32,000 nt of DNA, taken from contig NJBF01000019.1 of assembly GCA_003144275.1 (NCBI GenBank), positions 44,907 to 76,906 on the forward strand, given 5' to 3'. The notes beneath the pieces were generated by a model. The model was not told the DNA's origin, did no database searches, and saw only the letters and a program-made list of their open reading frames with translations. The stretch is from Candidatus Heimdallarchaeota archaeon B3_Heim (GTDB taxonomy: Archaea; Asgardarchaeota; Heimdallarchaeia; Hodarchaeales; Hodarchaeaceae). This document shows positions 2,361 to 9,459 of the stretch, one piece after another (position 1 is the stretch's first letter; the number at the start of each line of letters is the position of its first letter). The position numbers and the translations under genes are program-made.

Positions 2361-3356
2361 ATGCAACGAAAAAAACGAGTACTGCTAACACATAAAATTC
2401 CAGAAATTGGTATCGACCTTCTGAAGAAGCATTTTGAGGTTGTTATATTAGATTCTGAAGGTTCATTAGATATCCAATTGAATAAAATCTTACCTACCGT
2501 TGATTATCTTATCTCTCTTTTATCAGTAAGGATAGATAACAATCTATTAAGAAAGTTTCCAAATCTTAAGGGAATTGCTAATTATGCTGTCGGTTACAAT
2601 AATATAGATATCAATGCTGCGATTGAATGTGGTATACCAGTAACGAATACTCCTGATGTTTTAACCAATGCAACTGCAGATCTAACGTGGGGACTAATTC
2701 TAGCAGTTACACGAAGAATTGTTGAAGGGGATAAAGAATGTCGTCAAGCTACATTTTCAGGATGGGCACCTGAGTACATGTTAGGATATGAATTATCTGG
2801 GAAAACCCTGGGGATCGTGGGAATGGGGAGAATTGGTACAGCCGTGGCAAAAAGAGGGACTGGCTTTGATATGAAAATTTGTTATCATTCTCGAACGAAG
2901 TCAAAGGATCTGCCCGAATCAATGAAAGCAGTGCATCTTCCTGATTTAAAAACATTCTTAGAATCTTGTGACATCGTAAGTCTACATGTACCATATACAG
3001 ACAAAACTCATCACTTTATTGGGGAAAATGAGTTGAACTGGATGAAGAAAAACGCCTTTCTAATTAATACATCTCGTGGGAAAGTGATTGACGAAGTAGC
3101 GTTAATTAACACACTAAGTGAGAGTAAAATTGCTGGTGCAGGTCTAGATGTCTACTATAATGAACCATTAATACCCAAGGGGTTACGTGAATTAAATAAT
3201 ACGGTACTAACTCCCCACATTGGATCTGCAACAAAACAAGCTCGCGAAGCAATGGCAATCATGGTCGCAGAGAATATTATTGCAATCGAAAAGGGATTAA
3301 TACCCCCCAATTTAATACCTGAAATGAAAAAAGAGATTTTGAAAGGAAATCATTGA
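2361..3356 (+). CDS. gyaR: Glyoxylate reductase / D-glycerate dehydrogenase (D-2-hydroxyacid dehydrogenase)
   Basis: Motifs AVGYNNID, NTPDVLTNATADL, Rossmann GIVGMGRIG, LINTSRG, AGLDVYYNEP and LTPHIGSAT. Confidence 0.88.
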   Translation: MQRKKRVLLTHKIPEIGIDLLKKHFEVVILDSEGSLDIQLNKILPTVDYLISLLSVRIDNNLLRKFPNLKGIANYAVGYNNIDINAAIECGIPVTNTPDVLTNATADLTWGLILAVTRRIVEGDKECRQATFSGWAPEYMLGYELSGKTLGIVGMGRIGTAVAKRGTGFDMKICYHSRTKSKDLPESMKAVHLPDLKTFLESCDIVSLHVPYTDKTHHFIGENELNWMKKNAFLINTSRGKVIDEVALINTLSESKIAGAGLDVYYNEPLIPKGLRELNNTVLTPHIGSATKQAREAMAIMVAENIIAIEKGLIPPNLIPEMKKEILKGNH

Positions 3357-5044
3357 ACTTTACTTAGATTTCCTTTACAATAGGGGCAAACTCTGATGCC
3401 AGTTTTTCCGATGTCATCATAACAATTCGCACAAACCATTCGTGAACATTGATCACATTGGTAAGCAGAGTCAGTTGAGGGATGCTGCTCATTGTCTAAT
3501 TGACAGAAGAAAGATTTTCTTTCATCAGGGAAAAATTTGTGAGAATCGGACTTCTGCTCTACTGGTGTGCCACAATTCTTACAGAAACGACTATCTGACT
3601 TCAAAGTGTCACCACAGTTTTTACACCATTTAGAATTTGCAGGAGTTGTCGCTTTAGGTGTACCATAGTCACGCCCATGAAGTTTAGCCCCACAATTTGT
3701 ACAAAAGACATCACTAGGCCTGTAAACCGCTTTACATCTATGACACTCAGTCTTTTGAGGTGACGGGGCCGTAGTAGTTGTAGCAGTCTGTGTTACTGCT
3801 GAACCTGTACTCGTGGCTGCTGCACTTGCACTTTTCTTAGAACTTCTTCGTTGGACTACCGCAATTATGAGAACGAGGACAGCGATAAAGCCTATAACGA
3901 ATAAAACAGGCCTTGCATCCTTCCAGTGGTCTTCGTATGTCACATCTGTATTATACCGAACTTCAAACGAAATGTCTACAGATTCTTCAGAGTTGACAAA
4001 TGGATTCATATATATGAAGAAATACCAGGTGCCATCATAGGGCACTGTAAATGTTCCAGATTGTCGATCGTCGACATCCTCAATAAATAAACCTGGGGGG
4101 TCAGCTGCAGAGAAATCAATATTGTCCGTGGCAACATAATCCACCATAAAATCTATCTGAATCGGTGAAGTGGTCGGGTTGTACCATACTAAGTACCAAT
4201 CCTGGGCGTAGGTAACCACAAAGGTATTCTCATAGGGGTCAGAGCCAACGTAGGAATCCTCGGGTATTATTGTCTCCCAATTGTTCCAACGATTAAGAGC
4301 ATTTGCATCAGCAACAAAAAATTCTATATCACCGCCTGAGGTTACGTTAAATTGGAAGGTTAATACAGAACCTGGCTTTAAAAAGTACCCAATGTATTGA
4401 TAGTCATGATCAGCCTGAACGATCATACTCTCGGAATAGCTACCAGTAAGGTCTTGATCTTGCGGTAAATTCTCAAACGGTTGATCCCAAATAAGAAACG
4501 TCACCGTGGACGTTGCTTCGACGCTATAATCGATTATTTGATCTTCTTTCATCGGTTCCCGTTCATACCAATATTCATTATACCAAATAGTTTGTGTATC
4601 TTGATATGTGACTGTTCCACTTTCATTACTACTAGCAAATGGATAAGGAATGAAAGCCATACTAATCATTGGTAGAATTACGAGTAATGCGATGATACCA
4701 AGAACTGCGCCACCACCCCAATAAACAGGTGCATAATACCATCTTCGGTATGGATATCCCCACCACCAATTCCAATGCCACCATCGACGATACCATGGCC
4801 GATAATAACCGCCCCAATAACGTCGATGACGTCTACGATGATAGTTTCTTCCTGGACGAGATCGTGGGGCACGAGAAACAGTTCGACGAGAACCTGTGCG
4901 ACCAAAGGGCCGACCTGATCTTCTTACTGATCCTACTCTGAAGCTTCGACTTCCACCTCGGAAACCTCCACCTCTAAACCCACCACCACCTCGAAAACCG
5001 CCCCCTCCACCGCCTCGAAATCCACCGCCACCGCCACGAGGCAT
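3350..5044 (-). CDS. Two-TM membrane protein: Gly/Arg (RGG-like) N-terminus, GOLD/emp24-like extracellular region, two zinc ribbons, C-terminal RING-like Zn finger
   Basis: Start moved from 5095 to the ATG at 5044, which follows GAGGAGG. Hydrophobic helices AVLGIIALLVILPMISMAFI and VLFVIGFIAVLVLIIAVV; CxxC pairs near the C-terminus. Domain names are inferred by eye. Confidence 0.8.
   Translation of the reverse strand: MPRGGGGGFRGGGGGGFRGGGGFRGGGFRGGSRSFRVGSVRRSGRPFGRTGSRRTVSRAPRSRPGRNYHRRRHRRYWGGYYRPWYRRWWHWNWWWGYPYRRWYYAPVYWGGGAVLGIIALLVILPMISMAFIPYPFASSNESGTVTYQDTQTIWYNEYWYEREPMKEDQIIDYSVEATSTVTFLIWDQPFENLPQDQDLTGSYSESMIVQADHDYQYIGYFLKPGSVLTFQFNVTSGGDIEFFVADANALNRWNNWETIIPEDSYVGSDPYENTFVVTYAQDWYLVWYNPTTSPIQIDFMVDYVATDNIDFSAADPPGLFIEDVDDRQSGTFTVPYDGTWYFFIYMNPFVNSEESVDISFEVRYNTDVTYEDHWKDARPVLFVIGFIAVLVLIIAVVQRRSSKKSASAAATSTGSAVTQTATTTTAPSPQKTECHRCKAVYRPSDVFCTNCGAKLHGRDYGTPKATTPANSKWCKNCGDTLKSDSRFCKNCGTPVEQKSDSHKFFPDERKSFFCQLDNEQHPSTDSAYQCDQCSRMVCANCYDDIGKTGIRVCPYCKGNLSKVQ
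4940..5044 (-). repeat. Low-complexity GGN codon repeat encoding four FR(G)n units
   Basis: Translation MPRGGGGGFRGGGGGGFRGGGGFRGGGFRGGSRSFR. Confidence 0.9.
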
Positions 5045-5048
5045 TTTT

Positions 5049-6017
5049 TTATTCCTCCTCGGGTGTGGCGGACGTTTCGCGGAATACAAGGTCACGAGAA
5101 ACGGCTGCGAGTAGACAAATTATTGCTATAACTGAGAATAACAATCCACCAAAATCAATTTGAGTACTAGAAACACGTAGGACATCCATCAGAATGAAAG
5201 AAACAAAGAATAGCCATTCTACTATAATTCCTAACAGACCTAATAAAGTACCAATAGCATGCCAATTCCGATTGACTTTAATCATCTTATAATCTGCATA
5301 TGCCCATTGGAAAATTGCATAAATGCTTACAAGACCAAGAACGATAAATAAGACCCCAAAGATTGACAAAGAAAGCCATAAAAAGTTAAATTGACCTTGG
5401 ATATCTGTATATCGGATCCAAAAACTAGCCCCACGAACCTCAAAAAGATAGTACGTGGCTGTGAAACCCCCTTGGCTTGCAATCGGTGCTTTTAGGTAAC
5501 CAACAATACCTATAAGGGGAGCAAAAATCCCGAAAAATAGGTATAACACCGACATAAGAATGGTAAAACTATAATTTGCAAATCGTGGATTAGAAACAGG
5601 TATGAGGCCTTTTTGGTCTTCATACTTTTCAGGTAAAAAACCCCAGCAATCAGTTATCGTAGCAACTCCGATAACTTCATTATTTTCTACAACAGGAACG
5701 ACTGATACATCTAAATCTCTCATACGAGCAAAAGCATCGGATACTGTTGTACTTTTTGTGACTGGGTCAATTGTGTACATAATCTCGGTTACTTTTGACT
5801 TATCCACAGATAACCCTTCTGCAACCAAGCCAGTTACAATATCAAAATCAGCTATGACGCCCTGATACATATTATCGTCATCAAGGACAACCAAATCAGG
5901 AATTCCTTTTTCCTTCATTTTTAATGCCGCTTCTTGTACTGAGGCATTGGCTGAAATTGTATCATACTCATCATCAATTGTTAAATCTTGAATTAAGAAC
6001 TCTTTTTCTTTTGACAA
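5049..6017 (-). CDS. CBS-pair protein fused to a C-terminal domain of about 4 TM helices
   Basis: Two CBS repeats (TISANASVQEAALKMKEKGIPDLVVLD...GVIADFDIV; VTKSTTVSDAFARMRDLDVSVVPVVENNEVIGVATITD) followed by four hydrophobic segments. TTG start with GGAGGT upstream. Confidence 0.85.
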   Translation of the reverse strand: MSKEKEFLIQDLTIDDEYDTISANASVQEAALKMKEKGIPDLVVLDDDNMYQGVIADFDIVTGLVAEGLSVDKSKVTEIMYTIDPVTKSTTVSDAFARMRDLDVSVVPVVENNEVIGVATITDCWGFLPEKYEDQKGLIPVSNPRFANYSFTILMSVLYLFFGIFAPLIGIVGYLKAPIASQGGFTATYYLFEVRGASFWIRYTDIQGQFNFLWLSLSIFGVLFIVLGLVSIYAIFQWAYADYKMIKVNRNWHAIGTLLGLLGIIVEWLFFVSFILMDVLRVSSTQIDFGGLLFSVIAIICLLAAVSRDLVFRETSATPEEE

Positions 6018-6272: not shown

Positions 6273-6401
6273 GTGAATACAATTGTTATTTCTTGGGTAG
6301 TCACCGTTCCAGTAACTACAGTACTTGGAGCAATTATCTGGTTTGTTGTTGATTGGGTATATGTTGCATTGAGTTTCGGAATGGTTTCTCTTCTCTTTTA
6401 A
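6273..6401 (+). CDS. Possible 42-aa hydrophobic peptide or remnant resembling the last helix of a PiT-family transporter
   Basis: GTG-started ORF (V)NTIVISWVVTVPVTTVLGAIIWFVVDWVYVALSFGMVSLLF. Its TAA overlaps the cdc6 stop codon. Confidence 0.3.
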   Translation: MNTIVISWVVTVPVTTVLGAIIWFVVDWVYVALSFGMVSLLF

Positions 6402-7681
6402 TCTCCGTTCAACAAAGATCCAAGGGAAGTGATAATTTCCTCTGTCGGTAAGTCACGAATCCTTATGGTTGAAATTCGTCCTAAAGACCGACCATTAGTA
6501 TGACGATTTTCCACTTCTTGTTGAATTAAACCAAGTCGGCCTAAATCCTTTAGATATGCCCATACTTGTGTTTGCCGTCTACTACGTATACTTGCTTCTT
6601 CGCACACCCTTTCGTATTCTCTTTTTACCTCGGGAGTAGTTACAAATGACTGATTACAAACCGAAAGAAGACGGGCAATACTGAGCAACACAAGTTTTTG
6701 GTGGGTGTTTAAATCATCAATTATTGATTTTTCAATTGGTAGTACTTCCACGACTGCCCGTCTAACGTGCTCTGTACTAAGTTTTTTTTCTCCCTCAGCT
6801 TCACAAATTTTTGCTGTTCTCCAAAGAAGTTCAATAGCAAATCTAGCATCACCTTTTTCTTCAGCGAGACTGGCAACTGTATCTAGCAGCTCATCGCTAT
6901 AACTATCTTCACATAACCCCTGCTCTGCTCGGGTTGCTAGTATATCGAATAGTTGATACCGAGTGTATGGGGCAAATGTAATATAGTTGCGACCTAAAGA
7001 TGAAGCGGTAGAAGTATCTAAATAATAACGGAAATTTTTATCCCGAGTAATCGTGAGAAGATTAAAACGGGACTCTAAACGATCCTGAGAAAGTTCGAAT
7101 TCTTCTCTAATAATAGGTGATTCTTCTAATCGGGAAAGAGAATAAAGAAAATCAGTCCTTTCCTCAGGTAACAGGTAATCAATTTCGTCTAAGACAAGGA
7201 GCACTGTTAAGTTCTGTTCGTATAGTAAGAGAGTGAACATTCGTAATAATTCATCAACACTGAACCCTCTCAAGGGAAATCCTGACACTAGATATCTGAG
7301 GACGGTTGTTAGAATGAGATGTGGAGTTTTAGTCTTCCTACAATTCATATGAAAATATCTAAATCTCGGCTCTCCATGATTACGATTTTTAGCAATATAA
7401 GTTGTCAATTCATTTCCAAAAGCATGGGAGATGACAGTTTTCCCAGTCCCCACTGGTCCATAAAGAATTACTTTCTTTGAGGAAGCAGTCGGACTCGTGA
7501 TGATAGATTTAAAATACGAAACAAGGGCTTTCATTTCATCTTCCCGATGCCAGATAGAATGAGGTGTATATGAAGATGTAAACACTTTTTCTCCTTGATT
7601 TACATCACCATCATCTTCGCGAAAAACTGTTGGATGAGAACCAAAAAGATCTGAAAATGAGTAATTATTATTGGTATCCAT
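6398..7681 (-). CDS. cdc6: Cdc6/Orc1 replication initiator (AAA+ with C-terminal winged helix)
   Basis: YTPHSIWHREDE, Walker A GPVGTGKT, MNCR, Walker B VLDEID, sensor-2 GDARFAIELL, and a wHTH C-terminus (RRQTQVWAYLKDLGRLGLI...GR). Confidence 0.95.
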   Translation of the reverse strand: MDTNNNYSFSDLFGSHPTVFREDDGDVNQGEKVFTSSYTPHSIWHREDEMKALVSYFKSIITSPTASSKKVILYGPVGTGKTVISHAFGNELTTYIAKNRNHGEPRFRYFHMNCRKTKTPHLILTTVLRYLVSGFPLRGFSVDELLRMFTLLLYEQNLTVLLVLDEIDYLLPEERTDFLYSLSRLEESPIIREEFELSQDRLESRFNLLTITRDKNFRYYLDTSTASSLGRNYITFAPYTRYQLFDILATRAEQGLCEDSYSDELLDTVASLAEEKGDARFAIELLWRTAKICEAEGEKKLSTEHVRRAVVEVLPIEKSIIDDLNTHQKLVLLSIARLLSVCNQSFVTTPEVKREYERVCEEASIRSRRQTQVWAYLKDLGRLGLIQQEVENRHTNGRSLGRISTIRIRDLPTEEIITSLGSLLNGD

Positions 7682-8373: not shown

Positions 8374-9459
8374 ATGCCACCCCGCAAGAAAAAATCAAAC
8401 AATGCTAAGAATGAAATTGTTGAGGAAGAAGGTGTGTTGGAAAGTGCAATATCAGAAAATTCCACCTCTGTTCCTAATGTAGCTACTAATAAAGAAGCAT
8501 CAACTGGGAATATTGATGAACTTCCAGGTATTGGCCCTGCAACCGCAAAGAAATTGAGGGAATCAGGCTTTGGAACATTGGAATCGCTCGCTACGGTGAG
8601 TATTGGTCAATTAGTTGCAGTAGGTAATCTTGGAGAAGCTACTTCAAGTAAAATTATCCAAGCAGCGAGAGATGCACTTAATTTTGGTTTCGTTTCTGCA
8701 GATGAAATATTAGAACGTCGACGAAACATGTTAAAGATTACTACCGGTTCAGCATCGCTGGACGACCTATTTGGTGGTGGAATTGAAACTAGTGCAGTTA
8801 CTGAACTTTATGGGGAATTTCGGACTGGAAAAACGCAATTAGCTCATCAATTATGCGTTGCTGCACAGCTACCCCGTGAATTAGGTGGATTACGTGTTGA
8901 TGGACCAATTAAAGTAATTTATATCGATACTGAAGGTACTTTTCGGCCTGAACGTATTCTAAATATGACTAAGAGATGGGAAGGTGATTTGGATGTCAAA
9001 CAGGTCTTAAAAAACATTATGCATGGCCGTGCATATAATAGTGACCATCAAATGGTTCTAGCTGAAAAAGCAGCTCAAGATAGTCAAACAGAGCCAATCG
9101 GATTGGTCATAGTTGACTCATTAATTGCACATTTTCGTGCGGAATATATTGGCCGAGGAACATTGGCGAGTAGACAACAAAAATTGAACCAACACATCCA
9201 TACTTTACTTAAAATGGCCGAAGTCGGAAATATGGCCGTCATTCTCACTAATCAAGTCCATTCTAAACCAGATATGTTTTTTGGTGATCCAACTTTGCCT
9301 GTTGGTGGACATATTGTAGCTCATGCAAGTCAGACTCGTGTTTACCTTCGAAAATCCAAGGGTGAACGCCGGATTGCTCGAATTGCCGATTCACCTCTTT
9401 TACCTGAAAATGAAACAGTATTCGCTATCACTGGCGATGGTATTATCGACGTGAACTAG
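8374..9459 (+). CDS. radA: DNA repair and recombination protein RadA
   Basis: HhH N-terminal domain (IDELPGIGPATAKKL), FVSA polymerisation motif, GEFRTGKTQLAHQL, YIDTEGTFRPERI, Walker B IVDSLIAHFRAEY, GRGTLASRQQKL, TNQV and GGHIVAHAS. Confidence 0.97.
   Translation: MPPRKKKSNNAKNEIVEEEGVLESAISENSTSVPNVATNKEASTGNIDELPGIGPATAKKLRESGFGTLESLATVSIGQLVAVGNLGEATSSKIIQAARDALNFGFVSADEILERRRNMLKITTGSASLDDLFGGGIETSAVTELYGEFRTGKTQLAHQLCVAAQLPRELGGLRVDGPIKVIYIDTEGTFRPERILNMTKRWEGDLDVKQVLKNIMHGRAYNSDHQMVLAEKAAQDSQTEPIGLVIVDSLIAHFRAEYIGRGTLASRQQKLNQHIHTLLKMAEVGNMAVILTNQVHSKPDMFFGDPTLPVGGHIVAHASQTRVYLRKSKGERRIARIADSPLLPENETVFAITGDGIIDVN

What the first reader, a model, noticed from the sequence alone, without database searches (positions are those of the whole stretch)
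4720..5044. Fibrillarin/GAR-like FRGG repeat and Arg/Trp/Tyr-rich tract at the N-terminus of an archaeal membrane protein
Seen: MPR-G5-FR-G6-FR-G4-FR-G3-FR-G2-SRSFR (the last spacers shorten stepwise), then an Arg/Ser/Gly-rich stretch, RRHRR, and YWGGYYRPWYRRWWHWNWWWGYPYRRWYYAPVYW just before TM1, with no signal peptide. Established: RGG/FRGG repeats typify eukaryotic GAR domains (fibrillarin, nucleolin, Gar1), which bind RNA, phase-separate and are Arg-methylated, whereas archaeal fibrillarin lacks them. Inference: a membrane-tethered RNA-binding or condensate-forming disordered region. Caveat: Gly-rich aromatic tails also occur in some bacterial proteins.
Basis: partly seen in the sequence, partly recalled or inferred. 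Interest (0 to 1): 0.68.

Follow-up and report, generated by a model that had tools for sequence, protein, structure and literature searches.

The report
Conserved arginine-glycine tail on Asgard membrane protein
An Asgard archaeal membrane protein starts with a eukaryote-style arginine-glycine (RGG) tail and an arginine/tryptophan stretch; the tail is real, unique in its genome and the best-conserved part of the protein, but what it binds is still unknown.

Summary
Window 3350-5044 (-) encodes a 564-aa protein. Its first 109 residues carry five FRGG-type repeats, an invariant GRPFGRTG block and an Arg/Trp/Tyr tract that ends at TM1. The start is secure: M/V-PRGGG behind a GGAGG ribosome site in 29 loci, and 48 synonymous against 3 non-synonymous codon differences over 110 codons.

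This is the only RGG cluster among 11,634 ORFs of this Hodarchaeales genome. The tail holds 27 Arg, no Lys and no acidic residue. Homologues (all named ones Asgard) keep the tail. In 400 Asgard genomes, every listed FRGGGFRGG match lies in this gene. The tail is more conserved (64-69% identity between the Hodarchaeales-like and Loki-like groups) than the ectodomain (41%) or the zinc ribbons (42%).

Topology by charge is N-in and C-in. Between the two TMs lies a GOLD-like beta-sandwich ectodomain, and zinc ribbons plus a RING-like finger follow TM2. A CBS-4TM gene always sits directly upstream and occurs in the same families.

Best reading: a cytoplasmic, arginine-specific, RGG-type docking arm for a polyanion, most likely RNA, with the R/W/Y tract anchoring at the membrane surface. 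Its positional conservation argues against a purely compositional condensate scaffold. Function is inferred, not shown. I found no paper describing it. Other first-reader notes of this scan cover the same gene.

The parts
3350..5044 (-). Whole gene, 564 aa (P0001): RGG tail, TM1, beta-sandwich ectodomain, TM2, zinc ribbons, RING-like finger
5053..5058 (-). Shine-Dalgarno GGAGGA, formed by the last codons of the upstream gene; its stop TAA (5049-5051) lies 4 nt before the ATG at 5044
   Evidence: a GGAGG/GAGGTG site precedes the start in the 19 related loci with an ATG start
4937..5044 (-). Residues 1-36: five (F)RGG repeats. The block G20-G30 (GGGFRGGGFRG) is invariant or >=90% conserved. Predicted disordered.
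4865..4936 (-). Residues 37-60: R/S-rich block with invariant G44, P46-F47-G48-R49-T50-G51 and R54 (GRPFGRTG..R), followed by TVSRxP
   Evidence: 91% identity within the Hodarchaeales-like group, 64% between groups
4820..4864 (-). Residues 61-75: variable basic R/H/S linker (28% identity between groups over residues 61-78)
4718..4819 (-). Residues 76-109: Arg/Trp/Tyr juxtamembrane tract (YRPWYRRWW ... YRPWYY). It is kept even in the variant that has lost the RGG part.
4652..4717 (-). Residues 110-131: TM1 (signal-anchor, N-in)
3941..4651 (-). Residues 132-368: acidic (net -34) all-beta ectodomain. Residues ~200-305 form a GOLD-like sandwich nested in a second sandwich.
3836..3940 (-). Residues 369-403: TM2 helix followed by QRRSSKK
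3560..3754 (-). Residues 431-495: double zinc ribbon (Pfam DZR, 37.6 bits, cut-off 27.3)
3359..3520 (-). Residues 509-562: RING-like Cys-rich finger. It is absent from the ~490-aa Loki-type homologues. The same genome has paralogous fingers.
5049..6017 (-). Partner gene: acidic CBS pair (net -16) plus a 4-TM domain. It is always directly upstream and found in the same Asgard families.

Best explanation
The first 109 residues form a translated, strongly selected cytoplasmic tail of an Asgard-specific two-pass membrane protein. The tail has three modules. (i) A disordered RGG-type repeat (five FRGG units) plus an invariant GRPFGRTG block; together they act as an arginine-specific docking arm for a conserved polyanionic partner, most likely RNA, working beside the C-terminal zinc ribbons. 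(ii) A variable basic linker. (iii) An Arg/Trp/Tyr tract that lies on the cytoplasmic membrane surface next to TM1 and belongs to the membrane core.

The protein works as one subunit of an obligate two-gene complex with a CBS-4TM protein.

Shown here: the sequence, the start, the selection, its uniqueness, its conservation, the partner linkage and the modularity. Inferred: cytoplasmic location (from charge and zinc ribbons), disorder (AF2), and the ligand (by analogy with RGG motifs).
For: - Start and selection: an SD and an M/V-PRGGG start in 29 loci; 48 synonymous against 3 non-synonymous codon differences in 110 codons between L001 and L008.
- Arginine-specific: over 64 homologues the tail averages 20 R, 0.02 K and 0 D/E, in a Lys-preferring genome.
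- Meets the RGG-motif definition of closely spaced RGG/RG repeats interspersed with other, often aromatic, residues (PMC9718894).
- pLDDT is below 50 for residues 2-27 and 52-83.
- The tail is the best-conserved part of the protein: 0.69 and 0.64 identity between groups, against 0.41 for the ectodomain and 0.42 for the zinc ribbons; invariant GRPFGRTG.
- A profile of the tail found only 11 clusters in 1.84 billion representatives, all of this family.
- Every listed FRGGGFRGG match in 400 Asgard genomes lies in this gene, and the reversed control gave 0.
- P0099 replaces the RGG part with a zinc ribbon plus TPR repeats but keeps the R/W/Y tract, TM1 and the ectodomain.
- Charges are +27, -34 and a basic flank after TM2.
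- The partner gene is adjacent in all complete loci examined and occurs in the same families.
Against: - No experiment or direct computation shows RNA binding.
- No RNA-processing genes or Rfam RNAs lie nearby.
- Eukaryotic RGG regions usually sit beside RRM/KH-type domains, not in membrane proteins.
- No PRMT5-family methyltransferase was found in this 94%-complete genome.
- The strictly co-occurring partner has an unusually acidic CBS module (-16, lowest 4% of 140-aa windows), which could itself be the ligand.
- AF2 gave moderate confidence (pLDDT 57-71) to short strands at residues 28-30 and 47-50, so part of the tail may fold on a protein surface.
Confidence: 0.4

Rival explanations
1. Intra-complex electrostatic latch. 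The Arg-only tail, especially the invariant GRPFGRTG block, docks onto the acidic CBS pair of the co-encoded 4-TM partner or onto the protein's own zinc fingers. Docking would depend on nucleotide or ionic strength, coupling the CBS sensor to the state of the ectodomain/RING subunit. RNA is not involved.
For: - The partner is strictly adjacent and co-occurs by family.
- The CBS module has net charge -16, in the lowest 4% of proteome windows.
- Position-by-position conservation is higher than in the folded domains, which is typical of a motif that folds on a protein partner.
- Residues 41-50 have a mean pLDDT of 71.
Against:
- The RGG repeat number varies from 2 to 7, which fits multivalent binding better than one fixed interface.
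Confidence: 0.25
2. Membrane-surface and self-association element. Arg plus Trp/Tyr/Phe 'stickers' with Gly/Ser spacers bind anionic archaeal lipids and each other through cation-pi contacts. This would cluster the complex into two-dimensional patches or bend the membrane.
For: - The composition is 27 R + 26 aromatic + 28 G in 109 residues.
- Arg is used instead of Lys.
- The R/W/Y tract abuts TM1 and is retained with the membrane core in P0099.
- The repeat number varies by 15-nt units in Loki-type genomes.
Against: - Functions that depend only on composition normally tolerate sequence drift. Here the RGG and GRPFGRTG blocks are 64-69% identical across deep Asgard lineages and contain invariant columns.
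- Lipid binding alone would not exclude Lys.
Confidence: 0.2
3. Not a functional feature: a mis-called start, or neutral low-complexity sequence produced by slippage.
For: There is a 15-nt DNA periodicity in the repeat, and the copy number varies among Loki-type genomes.
Against: - The start and its SD are conserved.
- 48 synonymous against 3 non-synonymous codon changes.
- Invariant columns across 64 sequences.
- No internal start is available before TM1 without losing conserved sequence.
Confidence: 0.02

Closest known systems
Eukaryotic RGG/GAR regions (fibrillarin/Nop1, nucleolin, Gar1, FUS/EWS, FMRP RGG box)
   Same: Closely spaced RGG repeats with Gly spacers and Phe before Arg. Arginine only. 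Predicted disordered. Rich in aromatic residues.
   Different: It sits at the N-terminus of an integral membrane protein and has only five repeats. It is followed by a unique invariant GRPFGRTG block and a Trp-rich tract. Positional conservation is extreme. There is no RRM/KH neighbour domain, and no PRMT5-type enzyme was found. The genome's own fibrillarin has no GAR. Common descent with eukaryotic GAR regions cannot be shown for such simple sequence.
Trp/Arg-rich membrane-interface segments (my own knowledge: indolicidin/tritrpticin-type peptides, the HIV gp41 membrane-proximal region)
   Same: Dense Trp/Tyr with Arg right next to a TM helix. Such segments are expected to lie in the membrane interface.
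   Different: Here the segment is on the cytoplasmic side of a cellular protein, is conserved as YRPWY-type units, and is not a free peptide.
p24/TMED GOLD-domain cargo receptors
   Same: The ectodomain core (residues ~205-304) superposes on the p24beta1 GOLD domain (Z 11.3, rmsd 1.4 A, 89 of 93 residues). It is a GOLD-like domain on the non-cytoplasmic side, next to a TM helix.
   Different: The sandwich is nested in a second sandwich and flanked by two TMs. The cytoplasmic parts are long (RGG tail, zinc ribbons), not a short COP-binding tail. There is no Pfam GOLD match.
Membrane-anchored double-zinc-ribbon (DZR) proteins of archaea and bacteria; plant APD1-4 transmembrane RING E3 ligases
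   Same: DZR scores above the Pfam cut-off in 64 of 64 members. 19 of 64 members give sub-threshold hits to APD1-4_N in the ectodomain and 13 of 64 to a RING/U-box model.
   Different: The APD hits stay just under the curated cut-off (26.5 against 27 bits), and P0001 itself does not match. No DZR or APD protein is known to carry an RGG tail.

Membership tests
RGG/RG-motif (GAR-type) regions | [quoted passage not shown] | tested here: met
   RGG at residues 3, 10, 18, 24 and 29. The last three are 2-3 residues apart. Homologues carry 2-7 RGG.
RGG/RG-motif (GAR-type) regions | Intrinsically disordered; arginine rather than lysine; aromatic residues between repeats | tested here: met
   pLDDT below 50 for residues 2-27. 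Mean 20 R and 0.02 K over 64 sequences. Phe precedes four of the five Arg.
RGG/RG-motif (GAR-type) regions | Binds RNA or G-quadruplex nucleic acid | not testable with these tools
   Needs EMSA, anisotropy or CLIP.
RGG/RG-motif (GAR-type) regions | Arginines methylated by a PRMT | tested here: inconclusive
   PF05185 (PRMT5) gave no hit in the 94%-complete genome, although the control rang in 2 genomes. PF22528 rang in no control, so it is uninformative. PRMT1-type class I methyltransferases were not searched specifically.
Fibrillarin/Gar1-type nucleolar GAR proteins | The GAR is attached to a snoRNP or ribosome-biogenesis protein | tested here: not met
   The genome's fibrillarin has no extension. 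The only RGG cluster in the genome is on this membrane protein.
GOLD domain | GOLD beta-sandwich fold | tested here: met
   5azw_B: Z 11.3, rmsd 1.4, 89 of 93 residues. p24gamma2, TMED1, SEC14L and ACBD3 GOLD domains follow. This is fold similarity only; no Pfam GOLD match.
Double zinc ribbon (Pfam DZR PF12773) | Profile match above the curated cut-off | tested here: met
   37.6 bits against 27.3; 64 of 64 members match.
APD1-4 transmembrane RING E3 ligases | APD1-4_N domain plus a C-terminal RING | tested here: inconclusive
   PF16040 matches 19 of 64 members at E<0.01 (best 4e-6), but the one member whose score I saw (P0046) is just under the cut-off (26.5 against 27 bits) and P0001 does not match. 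The RING models match only weakly.

The most novel reading that the evidence does not exclude
The tail is a true functional counterpart of eukaryotic RGG/GAR domains that arose in Asgard archaea. It would be a membrane-tethered RNA-binding and clustering platform on what may be an ancestor-like transmembrane RING E3 ligase with a GOLD-like ectodomain, regulated by a CBS-tetraspan partner. That would link RNA or ribosomes to the membrane in relatives of the eukaryotic ancestor.
Probability: 0.12. Interest if true: 0.85.

Novelty: new variant of a known kind. Interest (0 to 1): 0.58.

Why it matters
The RGG-motif review I searched (PMC9718894) never mentions bacteria, archaea or prokaryotes, so RGG/GAR regions are treated there as a eukaryotic feature. 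Here an RGG-type tail is fixed under strong selection in two deep Asgard lineages (a Hodarchaeales genus and Loki-type families). It sits on a single-copy membrane protein and is the only such sequence in the genome.

This gives a compact, testable prokaryotic model for what an arginine-glycine tail does when tethered to a membrane. It also defines an undescribed two-gene Asgard membrane module: a CBS-4TM protein plus the RGG / GOLD-like / zinc-ribbon protein.

The patchy distribution (5 of 33 Asgard families) warns against reading it as a direct ancestor of eukaryotic GAR domains.

Tried and rejected
Neighbourhoods were taken from genome-search loci instead, and the context of the RGG-less variants P0099 and P0100 could not be examined. 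The one genome-contig scan with P0099 returned only a standard family member (L036).
- The ESM Atlas gave nothing for the tail and only the partner's own cluster.
- NCBIfam has no family for P0001.
- Rfam found no RNA in the window.
- Paper searches ('Asgard'+'RGG'; 'Asgard'+'GOLD domain'; RGG motif + archaea; arginine-glycine + archaea + membrane protein + zinc ribbon) found no description of this family.
- Foldseek's top hits to birnavirus VP2 (TM 0.12-0.18) were rejected as generic beta-sandwich similarity. The idea of a capsid-like N-terminal Arg arm plus jelly roll was dropped for that reason and because of the two TMs.
- PY-NLS-like and basophilic-kinase-site readings of the R/S block were considered from memory only and are not claimed. 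The PY dipeptide is present only in Loki-type sequences.
- The PRMT_C search was uninformative because the control rang nowhere.
- The AF2 model of the partner was of low confidence (mean pLDDT 64).

Full report
**What is there.**
The minus-strand ORF at 3350-5095 has its real start at the ATG at 5044. That start lies 4 nt after the TAA of the upstream gene and behind GGAGGA. The 564-aa product (P0001) begins with MPR and then five (F)RGG units separated by 2-6 Gly. An R/S-rich block, an R/H linker and a 34-residue Arg/Trp/Tyr tract follow, running into TM1.

**More than chance.**
- The genome has 3.95 Mb in 103 contigs, 36% GC and 94% completeness. In it this is the only one of 11,634 six-frame ORFs with three or more RGG in 40 residues.
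- It is also the genome maximum for G+R, for W and for W+Y+R density.
- Long ORFs of this genome prefer Lys (K/(K+R)=0.595), yet the tail has 27 Arg, no Lys and no acidic residue (P about 2.5e-11).
- The genome's fibrillarin has no GAR extension.

**It is translated and under selection.**
- In 29 related loci the gene starts at M/V-PRGGG. The 19 with an ATG start show a GGAGG/GAGGTG site upstream.
- Between two genomes whose proteins are 79% identical overall, the first 110 codons differ at 48 synonymous and only 3 non-synonymous codons.
- An alignment of 64 full-length homologues has invariant R3, G26, G27, G44, P46-F47-G48-R49-T50-G51, R54, P83, G96, W102 and P106.
- I split the 64 sequences by length into a Hodarchaeales-like group (27 sequences of 545 aa or more, including the query) and a Loki-like group (37 sequences under 540 aa). 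Between-group identity by segment:

| Segment | Identity between groups |
|---|---|
| RGG block | 0.69 |
| GRPFGRTG block | 0.64 |
| R/W/Y tract | 0.56 |
| TM helices | 0.39-0.49 |
| Zinc ribbons | 0.42 |
| Ectodomain | 0.41 |
| Ser/Thr linker | 0.10 |

The 'disordered' tail is therefore the best-conserved part of the protein.

**Distribution.**
- A search with the ectodomain found 89 relatives. Every one that carries an organism name is an Asgard archaeon: Hodarchaeales/Heimdallarchaeota, Lokiarchaeota/'Promethearchaeota', and single Thor- and Hermod-labelled entries.
- All full-length relatives carry the tail, apart from WD40-fused extracellular variants.
- In 400 Asgard species genomes the gene occurs in the window's own genus (21/21), in two large families (10/14 and 99/135) and in two single genomes. 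It is absent from the other 28 families, including sister families of its own order and class.
- A profile of the tail plus TM1 was searched against 1.84 billion representative proteins. It found 11 clusters, all of this family.
- The DNA pattern for FRGGGFRGG hit 98 of 400 Asgard genomes. Every listed hit lies in the 5' end of this gene, and the reversed control gave no hits.
- Some Loki-type genomes carry up to seven tandem 15-nt units, so copy number is variable while at least two units are always kept.

**Modularity.**
- One cluster (P0099, 875 aa) replaces the RGG/GRPFGRTG part with a zinc ribbon plus TPR repeats. It keeps the YRPWYRRWW-type tract, TM1, the ectodomain and TM2.
- Another (P0100) has a degenerate tract and no RGG.
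- The R/W/Y tract therefore belongs to the membrane core, and the RGG/GRPFGRTG part is a separable cytoplasmic module.

**Architecture and topology.**
- AF2 with 64 sequences gave mean pLDDT 75.9. Residues 2-27 and 52-83 are below 50 and residues 41-50 average 71. TM1 is at 107-131, a confident all-beta domain at 144-365 and TM2 at 370-403.
- Structural alignment puts p24 GOLD domains on top. p24beta1 gives Z 11.3, rmsd 1.4 A and 89 of 93 residues, and other GOLD domains follow. This core is nested in a second sandwich.
- Net charges are +27 (tail) and -34 (loop), with QRRSSKK after TM2. Together with the Cys4 zinc ribbons (Pfam DZR above cut-off), this gives N-in/C-in with the beta domain outside. 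This is an inference from the positive-inside rule, not a measurement.

**Partner.**
- The upstream gene (5049-6017) encodes a CBS pair plus four TM helices.
- It is directly upstream in every complete locus examined, both in the own genus and in the distant families, where the partner is only 36-40% identical.
- Its membrane domain occurs in exactly the same families (19/21, 10/14, 94/135, 1/1, 1/31).
- The CBS part is unusually acidic: net -16, in the lowest 4% of 140-aa windows.
- A low-confidence model of its membrane part aligns best with claudin/TARP/MP20-type tetraspans (Z about 10). That is below the level that is decisive for helical bundles.

**Mechanism.**
- Shown here: a selected, arginine-specific tail that meets the published RGG-motif definition (PMC9718894). 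It is unique to one gene family and tied to a two-gene membrane module.
- My best inference (0.4): it is a cytoplasmic docking arm for a conserved polyanion, most likely RNA, acting next to the zinc ribbons, while the R/W/Y tract lies in the membrane interface.
- Rival 1 (0.25): an electrostatic latch onto the acidic CBS module.
- Rival 2 (0.2): lipid binding and self-clustering through cation-pi contacts.
- The high positional conservation and the invariant GRPFGRTG block argue against a function that depends only on composition.
- An artefact is essentially excluded.

**Comparison with known kinds.**
- It works like, and formally qualifies as, an RGG motif. It is not a member of the nucleolar GAR proteins.
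- Common descent with eukaryotic GAR regions cannot be established for such simple sequence, and the patchy distribution speaks for a lineage-specific invention or transfer.
- No PRMT5-type enzyme was found.
- Sub-threshold matches of 19 of 64 members to the APD1-4_N domain of plant transmembrane RING E3 ligases, and of 13 of 64 to a RING/U-box model, are a lead for the whole protein, not a result.
- I found no paper describing this family.

**Limits.**
- No multimer prediction and no disorder, phase-separation or topology predictors were available.

Noticed in passing
window 5049-5600 (-), membrane half of the CBS-4TM partner: Its AF2 model (four TM helices with two short strands in the first outer loop) aligns best with claudin/TARP/MP20/PMP22-type tetraspans (Z 9-10.4, about 150 of 166-181 residues, rmsd above 4 A). 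This is suggestive, but below the level that is decisive for helical bundles, and the model confidence is low (mean pLDDT 64).
   Followed up: partly
window 3941-4651 (-) and homologues P0046 etc.: 19 of 64 family members give sub-threshold Pfam hits to APD1-4_N (the N-terminal domain of plant transmembrane RING E3 ligases), and 13 of 64 hit a RING/U-box model. Combined with the C-terminal RING-like finger of the Hodarchaeales-type members, this hints at a transmembrane E3-ligase-like protein.
   Followed up: partly
window 4934-5044 (-), first 111 nt of the CDS: The mRNA 5' end is 48% G, with 19 GG runs and three 2-tetrad G-quadruplex motifs in the first 80 nt. It ties for the most G-rich 111-nt stretch of the genome. 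This is a by-product of the Gly codons, but it is the kind of RNA that RGG peptides bind, so self-regulation is conceivable.
   Followed up: no
model me5ad29d1d61e, residues 28-30 and 47-50: AF2 makes short strands here (pLDDT 57-71). Several structural alignments span residues 28..305, as if the strands were packed on the ectodomain sandwich. That is topologically impossible if the tail is cytoplasmic. It is either a modelling artefact or a sign that these strands add to some beta-sheet.
   Followed up: no
G000 contig C93, minus strand, 72-aa ORF (outside the window): A small ORF with a CxxC at its start, then one divergent and three exact copies of a 10-residue Tyr/Arg/Phe-rich unit (YYRRRFRYIE). 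It has the second highest W+Y+R density in the genome.
   Followed up: no
G203, G207, G216 and other Loki-type genomes: The FRGGG unit is expanded to six or seven exact 15-nt tandem copies in some genomes. The repeat number evolves by slippage while the last two units stay fixed.
   Followed up: partly
P0081-P0090: The same ectodomain also occurs inserted in secreted or extracellular WD40/PQQ-type beta-propeller proteins without the RGG tail or zinc ribbons. This supports an extracellular location for the domain.
   Followed up: partly
G041 (family f4), contig C264:1037-3102: This is the only one of 31 genomes of that family with the operon, and its copy is Loki-like (46% identity). It is either contamination of the bin or a horizontal transfer.
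   Followed up: no
window 6398-7681 (-) and 8374-9459 (+): An Orc1/Cdc6 gene and a RadA/Rad51 gene flank the operon. The Cdc6 neighbour is conserved within the genus.
   Followed up: no
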